A stretch of DNA of 64,000 bases from Chrysomallon squamiferum (lineage: Eukaryota; Animalia; Mollusca). A program made the translations under genes and the position numbers. The stretch spans positions 10,478,001-10,542,000 of the forward strand of contig CM022672.1 of assembly GCA_012295275.1 (NCBI GenBank), written 5' to 3'. Position 1 is the first letter of the stretch. Every line of letters starts with the position of its first letter. Below the pieces are notes generated by a model. It saw only the letters and a program-made list of their open reading frames with translations. It was not told the DNA's origin and did not search any database. Positions 13,578-52,500 of the stretch are shown here, in pieces.

Positions 13578-16500
13578 CTGAAATTGAAGTTAGAAATGAA
13601 AAATGTTTAAAATGAAATACTCTTTTTTTTTTTTTTAGAAACATTTTTATTATTTTTAAAAGATGTTGTTTATCAGTATTATTATTGCTGTCATTATTAT
13701 TGTTGTTGTTACTATTATTATAATCATTATTATCATTATTACTGTTCTTATTATTATTATAATCATTATCATCATTATTACTGTTCTTATTCTTCTTATT
13801 ATTATTATCTTTACTATTATTATATCAGCATTATTATTATTATTATTATTATTATTATTATACTACCACCACCACTACAACTTCTATATTACTATTGCTA
13901 CTACTGCTACTACTACTACATCTTTTTATATTTACTACTACTATTACAAATATTTTGATTTTTACAACTACTACTACTACTACTACTACTACTACTACTA
14001 CTACTACTACTACTACTACTACTACTACTACTACTACTATTACTACTACTACTACTTACCCTACTCCCACCAGTATGAACACCGGTGTAGGGGGGGATTT
14101 CTTCACAACACTTATTGCTGGTTTTCACTTTAGAATCCCTCTGGTTTTCACTGTTTCCTTTCTTCTGAGCTAATTTCCTCTCATCAGTAAGTGGAGAGGG
14201 TTGCGGTGAGAGAGAACTTGGACGGATTAAGTATCTAAAAACATTAACCACACAAACACCTAAATATTTATTTTATTCATCTTTTTAGACATTCTACATT
14301 ATTATTATTGTTATTATTGTTATTGTTATTGTTATCATTCTTATTATTGTTATTATTATTATTATTATTATCATTGTTATCATTCTTATTATTCTTATTA
14401 TTATTATTATTATTATTATTATTATTATATATTCTTATTATTATTAAAGAGATCTGCATCTCTTTGTCTCTTTCTATCTTTCCCTTCGTGTACATAAATA
14501 CATGTGTGTTGCCTGTGCATGTGGATGTGTTTTACAGGAAATATGTATAATTCCTGAAAATTTTAGTTAATATATGTATGAAGTCTGATTCACTTAGGAA
14601 GTATATATATATATATATATAGCAAACATTTAAAACAATTTAATAAATACAATTTTTGTTAATGCAAATATAATCATTATTGTATTTGGATATAGTATCC
14701 AGTCTTTACTAACAATAAATTAATAGTTAAAAATAACAAAAACTTACACAATATCACCAAGTTCCAGTTTCAGGTCATAACTTGGGTTGATGATCACATA
14801 GGACACTGTGTTTCTCTTGTCGCTGATTTCAGCTACAAAACATTCAAAAATAAATTCATACACAACCAAAATTCTATCATCCAACTGCCATTTATTGAAA
14901 AGAAAATAGTTTTAAGAAATGTTTTATCTATATTAATTTTATTACTCTAAAGCAGAGATCTCCAAAAGGCCAGCATGTCATTTTTAAAAATGCTAAAAAT
15001 CATTAAGGAATGATGTATGTTTTGGATTTTTTTGAGTAATAAAAATACTTACCACAGTCTTCATACTGACTGATTTACATTGCATGTTTTGTGTAAAGAA
15101 CTTACTGCAGTCTTCATACTGACTGATTTACATTATAAGTTTTGTGTAAATAACTTACTGTAGTCTTCATATTGACTGATTTACATTAAAAGTTTTGTGT
15201 AAAGAACTTACTGCAGTCTTCATATTGACTGATTTACATTAAAAGTTTTGTGTAAATAACTTACTGCAGTCTTCATATTGACTGATTTACATTAAAAGTT
15301 TTGTGTAAAGAACTTACTGTAGTCTTCATACTGACTGATTTACATTATACGTTTTATGTAAAGAACTTACCATAGTCTTCGTATTGACTGATTTACATTA
15401 TATGTTTTGTGTAAAGAACTTACCCTAGTATTCATATTTGCTGATTTACATTAAAAATTTTGTGTAAATTCTTCATATTGACTGATTTACATTAAAGGTT
15501 TTGTGTAAAGAACTTACCGTAGTCTTCATAGTGACTGATTTACATTAAAAGTTTTATGTAAAGAACTTACTGAAGTCTCTTCATATTGACCATTTACTTA
15601 AAAGATTTATGTAAAGAACCTGTCTCTTCATAGTGACAGATTTACATTAAAAGATTTATGAAAGAACTCTTCCTGTAGTCATCTCCAGTGACTCATTTAC
15701 ATTAAAAGTTTTATGTAAAGAACTTACTGTAGTCTTCATATTGACTGATCTTCAAAAAGGTTTTAGTGTCGTCAAGTGACTGATTTACATTAAAAGTTTT
15801 GTGTAAAGAACTTACATGGTCATGGATGGAATTAAAAGGTTTGGATGAACTTACCGTGTATGTGTGGATGGATGGAGGGACTGCATCCTTTGGATCTGAA
15901 TGGATTCCTGGATGGATGAACAGATGATTACTGGATGAATGGATGAATGAATGCTCAATGACACCTGTTAATGGATGTACAACTTACATGGATAAAACAG
16001 GATTTAGGATCAAGAATGGTTGGTTAGGATGAGTCATGGATTGGATGGATGAACTGATGGATGAATGGATGGATGGATGGATGGATGGATAAATGGATGG
16101 ATGAATGGATGGATGGATGGATGAATGAATGGATGGATGGATGGATGAATGAATGTATGGATGAATGGATGGATGGATGGATGGATGGATGGGTAAATGG
16201 ATGGATGGATGAATGGATGGATGAATGGATGGATGGATGGATGGATGGATGAATGGATGGATGGATGGATGAATGGATGGATGAATGGATGGATGGATGG
16301 ATGAATGTATGGATGAATGAATGGATGGATGGATGGATGGATAAATGGATGGATGGATGGATAAATGGATGAATGGATGGATGGATGGAGTGACAGGTTT
16401 GTATTTATGTATCATGAATGTGAATTTGTATGTATGCATTACATACATATATGTATGTATGTGAGTATATGTGTGAGTGTGTATCTGTGTGTGTCTATAT

Positions 16501-49500: not shown

Positions 49501-52500
49501 CACAGCCCATATCTAACATCACCTAATAGTGATAACAAGACTTATTATCTAATCCTATGATAACCAGTTATTTCTAACTGTAATATGCTTTTCCCTTGCT
49601 AACAAGCATTTAGCTAATCTCCCATCCTGTACTGCCAGTCATGTCTTGTTCAGCCCCATGCCACAGATCACTCACTTTACCTTCAGATTGGCTATCAGTT
49701 ATAACTGAGACTTTATAATGAATCCTTCCCCTGGGATAAGCCCTCTGTAACACCCAGTTAGCCAGGCTCTTGATGGAATGGTGTATGAATACATCAGTGG
49801 CCAGTAGGATCAGTCTTCCCCAGAGAATGTGTTCGACTATTTTTTCCATTCCAACCAATGATCAGCTCTGTAATGGGTTTTTATCAAAAGCTGTTATGTA
49901 TGCTTTCCTGTCTAATAGAAGAATTTTGTCTAGAGTTTTTTTTTTTTTTTTTTTTTTAGTGTATAAACCTCAGGAAGCTGGGTATAAAAGATTTTTGCTG
50001 TTTGTCAGTGACCATAGTAACAGAGAGTTGATGATGGGTTTTCTATTTTATGGTGTCATTATACAAAACACAATATCATTTTATAACATTATAACAATTA
50101 ACAACAGAAATGTATTGAAGAGTTACACAAACAAATAAAAACTTCACTAAATTTTATAAATCTGGGAACTGGACAAGTTTTATTTCTATACAAAGTCGAT
50201 ATTTGCATTCGCTTCAGAAATACTGATAACATGCAACATCTAACTACAGAAAATGTTTTCAGAGAAGAAACAACAAAATATTCATTCTTCATCCTGTCCT
50301 TTCAACAAATTAACAAGACATTTTCTTATCACTTGCACATAAACTTCTCCTATTAGTCAAGCAAAGTGATAGCACCTAAAACCAGAAATCTTCAACATAA
50401 ACACAGCAGTCTAACAATGTTAATTAACGTTCGCAATCTCGCATTTAACAGGAGAGCTTCTTCAGTCAACAAGCTTTCAGATGAAACTGTGTAAGAAGCC
50501 AAAGCCCATAAAAGACCTCTATTAGTGCAGGACACTATTATTGTCTCAGCATGCAGCGATGATTGAAATAAGCAATATGCACAATTTGGCTGCACGGTGA
50601 TACATCATGTTATCAAGATGGTATCATATTATGGGTGTGAATGACTGAGACATAAAATGTAATGGGGTGCCAGACTAGCATTGACTGCAAGTGTTAATCA
50701 CTGCAAGGGAGGTTGCCAGCCAGCCATTTGTGGTTAGTTTTATAATTTTATCATTTGTCATCATTACATGGTCCAGTGGTTATGTTGCATGCTTAAGATT
50801 CTTAAGTTACATTTTTTATGAGATTGTGTCAGAATTATTCACTCCATTTTTGCAGTAGTGTCTGTATATGAGTGAAAGAAAGAAAGTTTAATAATTCCTT
50901 AGAAAAGTCTTTTAGATTTCAGACACAAGCATATATACACAGTCATACATGCATAAAAACATTCACACATGTATACTGAGAAAAAGACAAACACACACAT
51001 ACATTTTTAGAGACAGGCACCTTGTGAATACAAGGCTCAGGAGGATGGCACATTATATATTTGTTTATCTATTTTAATAAAGATAAGATACTTAAGGATG
51101 GCACATTATATATTTGTTTATCTATTTTAATAAAGATAAGATACGTAAGGATGGCACATTATAGGCTATATATTATCAAGACAAGGCACATTACATATCT
51201 GTGGACATACCTTATGAAGACAAGGCACATTACATATCTGTGGACATACCTTATGAAGACAAGGCACATTATGTATCTGTGGACATACCTTATGAAGACA
51301 AGGCACATTATGTATCTGTGGACATACCTTATGAAGACAAGGCACATTATGTATCTGTGGACATACCTTATGAAGACAAGGCACATTATGTATCTGTGGA
51401 CATACCTTATGAAGACAAGGCACATTACATATCTGTGGACATACCTTATGAAGACAAGACACATTACATATCTGTGGACATACCTTATGAAGACAAGGCA
51501 CATTACATATCTGTGGACATACCTTATGAAGACAAGACACATTATATATCTGTGGACATACCTTATGAAGACAAGACACATTATATATCTGTGGACATAC
51601 CTTATGAAGACAAGACACATTATATATCTGTGGACATACCTTATGAAGACAAGACACATTATATATCTGTGGACATACCTTATGAAGACAAGACACATTA
51701 TATATCTGTGGACATACCTTATGAAGACAAGACACATTATATATCTGTGGACATACCTTATGAAGACAAGGCACAGGAGGGTGGCACACAGAATCATTAA
51801 CTGTTGTCCTAGAGCAGACTGTGACTTCTGCATGACTCTGTGAAGATCATTCTGGAAGACAAATCAACATGAAGGAAATAAATCAATATCTTGTAATTAA
51901 TAATTACCAAAAATATATTTCTTTAACCATTTACCTTGTAATTTTTTGACACAAAAAATAGAATTTTCTTTTAATGAAAAATATGAAACAGTATTATTTA
52001 TTTGCTGTGTAACTGAAAATTAATATTAAGTACTTGTTAAATTTTTGTTACAAAACAATGCATTTAATTTATCTCTGTATTAATGTTAATCACAAAACTG
52101 TTTATTTGTTGTTTTTAATTTGCTGTGAACCTGATACTTACAAACATGTTCTGCAGTGCTTGTTTTGCTAACCAACAGTTCAAAAAGACAGGAATAAACA
52201 GATTACGTAGAGGCTCAAAAATCTGAAAATAGATCAGCAGTATTTAAAAACATTTAAAAAAGTAAATAATAGAAAATGTGTTTGATTTTTTGGTTCTTAT
52301 TTTAAGCTGTGAAAAATAAAATAATTTTAAAAATTTCAAAAATCCAAAATTAGTCTTTGTAGATGTTTCTCTTTTTAAAGAAAATGTTAAATTTAGAAAA
52401 ATCTTTAAAATTTTCTCTTTTTTTTAATCTCAACAAATATTTAAAATATGTAAAAACCAGTGATTGAAAGGTTGCTAAATATTTCTCATTCTTTCTCAAG

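What the first reader, a model, noticed from the sequence alone, without database searches (positions are those of the whole stretch)
15040..51775. Splice-junction minisatellites: at least five exon-intron boundaries of one ion-channel gene are tandemly amplified
Seen: five unrelated arrays (39, 24 and 53 bp at donors; 43/44 and ~38 bp at acceptors) each have a unit made of the terminal nucleotides of a KCNT exon plus the adjoining intron, so every unit contains a copy of the real splice site. Each array is anchored on the exon, extends only into the intron, and in most cases degrades with distance from the exon. A sixth array (78 bp) starts 28 nt after a donor. Known: tandem duplication across a splice signal is a proposed route to intron gain and alternative splice sites (tandem genomic duplication model), and intronic VNTRs can modulate splicing. 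Inference: five of ~50 junctions in one gene suggests either a mutational process that seeds repeats at splice junctions or a copy-number 'rheostat' of competing splice sites. The neutral alternative is a repeat-prone genome in which boundary-overlapping arrays are simply tolerated.
Basis: partly seen in the sequence, partly recalled or inferred. Interest (0 to 1): 0.85.

Follow-up and report, generated by a model that had tools for sequence, protein, structure and literature searches.

The report
Splice-junction "mirage" repeats in snail KCNT
Five exon borders of a snail potassium-channel gene are each copied head-to-tail into the neighbouring intron (one border inferred, because its exon is garbled in this assembly), a repeat type already known from lancelet and human genes and likely harmless here, since the assembled RNA uses the original splice site at the one border that could be checked.

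Summary
The arrays are real. The window holds a KCNT/Slo2 channel gene (minus strand) of a close relative of the vent snail Gigantopelta aegis: 24 exons give 935 residues, 882 identical, no gap. Four arrays (39 and 24 bp at donors, 43/44 and 37 bp at acceptors) repeat the exon's own junction. The 53-bp array does so by inference: its exon is garbled. The 78-bp array starts at a second donor that G. aegis isoforms also use.

At the 43/44-bp array, 2 of 2 RNA runs splice to the exon-proximal acceptor, and DNA from two studies carries the units. The other arrays were not tested with reads.

This is the known 'mirage' class (lancelet Adh3 and globins; human F7 intron 7). This scan has noted it before: 15 findings in at least 12 other genomes.

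The excess at junctions is 2- to 8-fold within the window, P from 0.0003 to 0.28 depending on the null, uncorrected for window selection: suggestive, not shown. Best reading: tolerated slippage products in a repeat-rich genome. A rheostat has no support, but two in-frame donor ladders remain untested.

The parts
13404..55653 (-). KCNT/Slo2 potassium-channel gene, 28 coding exons in the window (the 5' exons were not found in it)
   Evidence: tblastn with G. aegis P0002; 24 exons chain to 935 aa, 0 stops, 882 identical, 0 gaps; Pfam Ion_trans_2 in exon 47697-47880
51757..51851 (-). exon 4 (95 bases); its donor is the first unit of the 39-bp array
51173..51775 (-). 39-bp donor array, 15.5 copies, 98% matches; 19 exon bases per unit; 14 pseudo-donors, in frame and stop-free
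51019..51163 (-). older debris beyond the 39-bp array: a 53-bp duplication and a diverged copy of the last ~32 bases of exon 4 (0.79 identity in a rough register)
42027..42246 (-). 37-bp acceptor array, 5.5 copies, 77% matches; 5 weaker pseudo-acceptors, each leading to a stop within 7 codons
41873..42037 (-). exon 6 (165 bases), with an array on both borders
41010..41881 (-). 24-bp donor array, about 36 copies; 9 exon bases per unit; 33 pseudo-donors, in frame and stop-free
32407..32427 (-). 21-base in-frame extension of exon 14 to an alternative donor; reads VQPQLNG, against VQPKSYG in G. aegis isoforms X1 and X3; use in this species is predicted
30035..32405 (-). 78-bp array, 30.4 copies, 98% matches, starting at the alternative donor; the equivalent site lacks GT in 16 of 30 copies and scores -4.1 in the other 14
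27598..27709 (-). exon 18; its donor joins 27132 in RNA
27122..27517 (-). 43/44-bp acceptor array (core 6.4 copies plus decayed ~51-bp units); 11 exon bases per unit; all 5 pseudo-acceptors tested lead to a stop within 9 codons
   Evidence: units present in DNA runs X3 and X5
27031..27132 (-). exon 19 (102 bases); the acceptor at 27132 is the one used in 2 of 2 RNA runs
15855..15964 (-). garbled exon 25: remnants of G. aegis residues 1074-1116 mixed with ATCC repeats, likely a local assembly error; inferred anchor of the 53-bp array
15040..15860 (-). 53-bp donor array, 13.4 copies by TRF; 12 further GTAAGT donors scoring 8.3-12.3; read-through meets a stop within 9 codons
40436..40531 (-). 42-bp duplication starting 2 bases inside intron 7, not spanning the donor
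39876..40059 (-). decayed 30/42-bp array 16 bases after donor 8
34548..34729 (-). decayed 11/28-bp array 22 bases after donor 12, rich in donor-like hexamers
22699..23226 (-). 91-150-bp array ending about 20 bases before acceptor 23 (hand-extended; TRF stops 137 bases away)

Best explanation
These are 'mirage' minisatellites: short pieces spanning an exon border were likely duplicated by slippage or unequal exchange and amplified into the intron, and they are likely tolerated because splicing keeps using the copy next to the exon (shown at one border, predicted at the other four). Shown: unit anatomy, one-sided growth into the intron, conserved exon borders, the RNA joint at the 43/44-bp array, and that array's presence in other DNA. 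Inferred: a duplication wholly inside an exon is purged, while one that straddles the border leaves the mRNA unchanged, so such arrays can only appear to grow inward. The host region is very repeat-prone (182 TRF rows in 64 kb; 13 complex minisatellites and 36 microsatellites in the gene), so about one junction-spanning array is expected by chance, and this gene sits in the upper tail. Proximal-site choice follows the first-donor rule shown for human F7 and, for acceptors, exon definition (established knowledge, recalled). Rare use of acceptor copies would give early stops and likely decay of that RNA.
For: Exon-proximal borders reproduce the G. aegis protein without a gap (882 of 935 identical). 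RNA joint 27598 to 27132 in 2 of 2 RNA runs (103 and 62 letters on the shorter side), no other joint, and no RNA cover over 27152-27515. Six unrelated unit lengths, 3 of 6 multiples of three, as chance gives. All 10 acceptor copies tested (5 per array) and the 53-bp read-through meet stops. Where the junction motif could be matched in 93 long homologues, almost none show extra residues: 0 of 53, 0 of 40, 2 of 41 and 1 of 18 matched. The same anatomy without aberrant mRNA is reported for lancelet Adh3 and globins (PMC3087553 section 16) and human F7 (PMC1557585). Single duplications are barely over-represented at junctions: 3-4 of 65 against 0.7-1.7 expected.
Against: Five spanning arrays against 0.7-1.7 expected (P 0.0003-0.01), and 10 of 13 arrays within 25 bases of a junction (P about 1e-6 to 1e-7, but that threshold was chosen after seeing the data). 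The threshold-free version gives P 0.001-0.03. Exon 6 has arrays on both borders, and the exon 4 border was copied at least twice. Only 1 of 5 arrays was tested in RNA, and contigs drop rare variants. In human CBS and 6-16 two pseudo-donors are used (PMC1557585 introduction).
Confidence: 0.68

Rival explanations
1. Same silent arrays, but exon edges are real hot spots in this lineage: minisatellites are seeded, amplified or kept preferentially at or beside splice junctions (for instance because deletions that would remove them also hit the exon, or because breaks or slippage favour the exon-intron boundary).
For: 5 of 13 spanning and 10 of 13 within 25 bases; threshold-free P 0.001-0.03; multi-copy echoes at 4 of 65 junctions against 0.5 expected (one of the four is a microsatellite); microsatellites within 50 bases of a junction 7 of 36 against 2.8-3.9 expected (P 0.02-0.06). 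The scan's notes list several genes with many such arrays (unchecked).
Against: The window was chosen for this pattern out of a very large scan. With the five arrays of the finding removed, the other 8 show no significant closeness (P 0.12-0.29). The first echo test gave P 0.28. The neighbouring six-exon gene has 0 of 10 junctions with an echo.
Confidence: 0.22
2. Copy-number rheostat or isoform ladder: pseudo-sites compete with the real site, so copy number sets channel dose or adds 13-residue units in the first pore-domain helix and 8-residue units in the first RCK domain.
For: The 39- and 24-bp ladders are in frame and stop-free over all copies, with donors identical to the real ones. Human CBS and 6-16 use two pseudo-donors. 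The junctions fall at G. aegis residues 258 and 374, inside Ion_trans_2 and Slo-like RCK.
Against: Only the proximal site is seen at the array tested. Three of five arrays give stops. The arrays are young (92-98% matches) and unrelated to each other. Insertions in a membrane helix would probably break the channel (inference). F7 pseudo-donors, in-frame ones included, stay unused.
Confidence: 0.07
3. The arrays are assembly artefacts.
For: The exon anchoring the 53-bp array is garbled and the array head next to it is irregular, so local consensus errors exist in this sequence.
Against: Contigs of two DNA runs from two studies span consecutive 43/44-bp units (80 and 67 letters, 0 differences). 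The arrays show blocks of unit variants and decayed tails that errors would not make.
Confidence: 0.03

Closest known systems
Lancelet 'mirage' minisatellites (Adh3, globins BflGb6/BflGb9, troponin C, PGBD5). Seen: PMC3087553 passages and section 16; PMC3902484 passages; the Adh3 and troponin C papers only as cited there
   Same: Tandem units that span a 5' or 3' exon-intron border, in Adh3 with units of 10-72 bp; splice signals repeated; normal splicing reported; boundary copies less homogenised.
   Different: Mollusc rather than cephalochordate; five or six borders in one 42-kb gene; length polymorphism and somatic instability not tested here.
Human F7 intron 7 37-bp VNTR (PMC1557585: abstract, discussion and passages)
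   Same: First unit spans the border; identical pseudo-donors follow; only the first site is used.
   Different: One array per gene and 5-9 copies, against 14 and 33 pseudo-donors here, plus acceptor-side arrays.
Human CBS intron 13, 6-16 (IFI6) intron 2, LMNB2 and PDGF intron 4 junction repeats (seen only as summarised in PMC1557585)
   Same: Same anatomy at donors, 10-25 copies.
   Different: CBS and 6-16 use two pseudo-donors; no such use was seen here at the one array tested, which is an acceptor array.
Intron gain or splice change by internal tandem repeats in human paralogues (PMC2812944 passages)
   Same: Minisatellites at exon-intron borders as raw material for new splicing.
   Different: No new intron and no changed exon border relative to G. 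aegis is seen in this gene.

Membership tests
Mirage / junction-spanning minisatellite | Head-to-tail array of minisatellite-sized units | tested here: met
   TRF periods 39, 24, 37, 44, 53 with 5.5-36 copies
Mirage / junction-spanning minisatellite | Terminal unit spans an authentic exon-intron border, so units hold exon and intron bases | tested here: met
   Met for 4 arrays against exons fixed by homology
Mirage / junction-spanning minisatellite | Same feature for the 53-bp array | tested here: inconclusive
   Anchor exon garbled; about 12 unit bases read E-D-Y like the G. aegis exon end
Mirage / junction-spanning minisatellite | Same feature for the 78-bp array | tested here: inconclusive
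   Abuts an alternative donor; only about 3 exon-side bases are shared, and the site is dead or weak in the copies
Mirage / junction-spanning minisatellite | Splice signals repeated in the copies | tested here: met
   14, 33 and 12 extra GT donors; 7 and 5 extra AG acceptors listed
Mirage / junction-spanning minisatellite | Normal splicing at the exon-proximal site | tested here: met
   At 1 of 5 arrays, in 2 of 2 RNA runs; the other 4 untested
Mirage / junction-spanning minisatellite | Copy-number variation between alleles | not testable with these tools
   Runs are kept as contigs; summed depth is no copy number
Intron gain by tandem genomic duplication | A new intron bounded by duplicated AG/GT sites, absent from relatives | tested here: not met
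   Protein colinear with G. aegis without gap; arrays lie inside introns with their own borders. Intron positions in relatives could not be read
Splicing-regulatory VNTR (CBS, 6-16 type) | Pseudo-sites used in mRNA | tested here: inconclusive
   Not seen at the 43/44-bp array, but contigs drop rare variants; donor arrays untested
KCNT/Slo2 channel gene | Pore domain plus Slo-like RCK domains, best hits named KCNT | tested here: met

The most novel reading that the evidence does not exclude
The 39-bp and 24-bp arrays are working in-frame donor ladders: 14 and 33 spare donors add 13-residue units to the first pore helix and 8-residue units to the first RCK domain of Slo2, so repeat number acts as an inherited dial on channel dose or gating in this snail's neurons.
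Probability: 0.07. Interest if true: 0.65.

Novelty: new member of a known kind. Interest (0 to 1): 0.25.

Why it matters
As it stands it is a dense but ordinary example of a described repeat class, now in a probable vent snail. It matters a little as a natural test bed: one gene carries identical competing donors (14 and 33 copies, in frame) and acceptors, so deep RNA reads would test the first-donor rule outside mammals. The open question is whether minisatellites really prefer exon edges in repeat-rich marine invertebrates. I saw no genome-wide test of this in eight literature searches (listings only for most hits). If they do, that points to an unexplained mutational or retention bias and to a steady supply of spare splice sites for intron sliding and protein repeats.

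Tried and rejected
No whole genome is held for this window, so the decisive genome-wide null could not be run. Reads were laid on one array only; site use and reality of the 39-, 24-, 37-, 53- and 78-bp arrays, and the true sequence of the garbled exon, remain open. In one search the DNA runs leave 27334-27515 and 27568-27790 uncovered; the tool filters records, so this says nothing. Contig pieces at 27118-27148 and 27522-27546 that run on unlike the window come from another place and were ignored. The first echo test counted decayed array interiors as background and gave P 0.28; I redid it with interiors masked under five settings, all reported (P 0.097, 0.033, 0.062, 0.0015, 0.0016). It misses the 37- and 53-bp arrays and counts one microsatellite. 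The '10 of 13 within 25 bases' figure uses a threshold and three array ends set by hand after looking, so I rely on the threshold-free version. Splice scores came from a matrix with some off-by-one sites; only its match counts are used, and scores come. The motif check on homologues failed to match 40-75 of 93 proteins per junction and is weak. No upstream KCNT exon was found in 55660-64000, so the 24-bp (57900) and 34-bp (61816) arrays count as mid-intron. 'Arrays were selected to keep frame' was rejected: 3 of 6 unit lengths are multiples of three. Look-ups for look-alike stretches and for mollusc mirage notes were empty. Supplements of the papers were not read; those of PMC3087553 hold the unit alignments.
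Full report
Host gene. The window is about 27% G+C and dense in repeats: 182 TRF rows. One 79-residue exon product found 1642 proteins; the best is a KCNT2-like channel of Gigantopelta aegis at 91%. 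tblastn with that protein maps the gene on the minus strand. Twenty-four exons from 55653 to 18731, all with AG and GT borders, give 935 residues with no stop, 882 identical to G. aegis and no gap. Three further exons lie at 14832-14748, 14234-14060 and 13577-13404. The animal is therefore probably a related vent snail; the species was not determined. No genome is held.

The arrays. 39-bp (51173-51775): each unit is 20 intron bases plus the last 19 of exon 4; 14 extra donors match the real one over 16 bases. 24-bp (41010-41881): 15 intron plus 9 exon bases; 33 extra donors. 43/44-bp (27122-27517): 11 exon bases; four exact and three decayed extra acceptors listed. 37-bp (42027-42246): about 10 loosely matching exon bases; five acceptors scoring 5.0-8.4 against 10.3 for the real one, on a matrix built from the window's 32 donors and 33 acceptors. 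Exon 6 carries arrays on both borders. Beyond the 39-bp array lies an older copy of the last ~32 bases of exon 4 (0.79 identity), so that border was copied more than once.

Two corrections. The exon for G. aegis residues 1074-1116 was not found by tblastn. At 15964-15855 there is a 110-base AG..GT segment (127 expected) whose pieces read like that exon in shifting frames and that holds 10 CATCC/CATTC words against 0.17 per 110 bases in the other exons, 71 bases from a 350-base ATGG repeat. All three G. aegis isoforms keep this exon. I read it as a local assembly error; this is untested. The 53-bp unit ends in about 12 bases that read E-D-Y, like the G. aegis exon end, and is followed by GTAAGT in 12 further places, so the fifth array is a junction array by inference. 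Second, the 78-bp array begins 1 base after a donor 21 bases downstream of the main one; the extension reads VQPQLNG and G. aegis isoforms X1 and X3 carry VQPKSYG there. The equivalent site lacks GT in 16 of 30 copies and scores -4.1 in 14. Decay with distance holds for 2 of 5 arrays.

What the copies would do. Use of any 39- or 24-bp donor tested (3 each, including the last) keeps the frame with no stop, adding 13 or 8 residues per unit, at positions inside the pore domain and the first RCK domain. All ten acceptor copies tested, and read-through into the 53-bp array, meet a stop within nine codons.

Reads. Eleven runs were listed, nine holding the gene region, two of them RNA, all as contigs. 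Four runs were laid on 27022-27790. Both RNA runs join 27598 to 27132, the exon-proximal acceptor; no other joint was listed and neither covers 27152-27515. Their loose ends match the next exons on either side (compared by eye). Both RNA runs belong to one study. Two DNA-like runs from two studies hold contigs spanning consecutive units. Contigs show presence, not absence, so rare use of copies is not excluded.

More than chance? Thirteen complex minisatellites (period 20 or more, TRF score 100 or more, not microsatellite-like; two adjoining pairs merged) lie in the mapped gene. With arrays collapsed to one unit, five spanning a junction compare with 0.71-0.84 expected under uniform placement (P 0.0003-0.0008), 1.27 when only complex sequence may seed (P 0.005) and 1.38-1.65 within the own intron (P 0.004-0.01); without the inferred 53-bp case P is 0.004-0.06. 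Ten of 13 lie within 25 bases of a junction (P about 1e-6 to 1e-7), but I set that threshold and three array ends after looking. A threshold-free combination gives P 0.001-0.03, and 0.12-0.29 for the eight arrays outside the finding. A TRF-independent echo test over 66 junctions found 4 of 65 eligible against 2.7 expected (P 0.28); with array interiors masked, 3-4 against 0.5-1.7 (P 0.0015-0.10 over five settings). The neighbouring six-exon gene shows none at 10 junctions. For a window picked from a very large scan these values do not establish a bias, though they lean that way.

What is known. Lancelet genes carry tandem duplications of exon-intron borders, named 'mirages', on both 5' and 3' borders, with unstable length and no reported effect on splicing; their origin is called unclear (PMC3087553, passages and section 16; PMC3902484, passages). 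In human F7 a 37-bp VNTR repeats the donor, and only the first site is used although the others are functional; CBS and 6-16 use two pseudo-donors, LMNB2 and PDGF none (PMC1557585, abstract, discussion, passages). Minisatellites at borders can also create introns in human paralogues (PMC2812944, passages). A search for 'mirages' with 'minisatellite' and 'exon' returned four papers, none on molluscs by title; I saw no genome-wide enrichment test in the listings, a library that lacks most subscription papers. The scan's own notes hold 15 findings of this kind in at least 12 genomes, among them an abalone gene and genes with three to eight such introns (unchecked, eight shown).

Verdict. A real, unusually dense set of mirage repeats, a new member of a known kind. 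Most likely (0.68) silent slippage products that can only survive by growing into the intron; 0.22 that exon edges are a true hot spot; 0.07 a working ladder or rheostat; 0.03 artefact. Interest 0.25.

Noticed in passing
window 15855-15964 (-): A conserved coding exon is garbled: shortened, frame broken and mixed with ATCC repeats beside an ATGG microsatellite; likely an assembly or polishing error that would break the gene model.
   Followed up: partly
window 32407-32427 (-): Alternative donor 21 bases downstream of exon 14, matching a 7-residue insert in G. aegis isoforms X1 and X3.
   Followed up: partly
window 32364 (-) and each 78-bp unit: Each 78-bp unit holds a strong donor-like site (score 7.0, above the real donor's 4.9). 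The first lies 63 bases after the main donor, in frame and before the first stop, so a 21-residue extension is possible.
   Followed up: partly
window 24523-24546, 22653-22679, 18731-18790 (-): Three short frame-preserving exons (24, 27 and 60 bases), conserved in G. aegis and skipped together in its isoform X3.
   Followed up: partly
window about 4297-7778 (+): Six-exon gene of the Ribonuc_L-PSP (RidA/UK114) family, tail to tail with KCNT; exon 2 hits PF01042 at E 6e-5, below the curated cut-off. No junction arrays.
   Followed up: partly
window 13677-14056: A TAG/TAC microsatellite starts 3 bases inside the last intron and continues the donor's own letters: a microsatellite-sized junction echo.
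   Followed up: partly
window 12564-12888: 39-bp array of 8 copies downstream of the stop codon, possibly in the 3' untranslated region.
   Followed up: no
window 61816-62277 and 57900-57998: 34-bp (13.6 copies) and 24-bp (4 copies) arrays in the long upstream intron, with no exon found next to them.
   Followed up: partly
window 42784-43062, 45148-45581, 28428-28537: 25-, 93- and 48-bp arrays 746, 2115 and 162 bases from the nearest junction: the mid-intron members of the set.
   Followed up: yes
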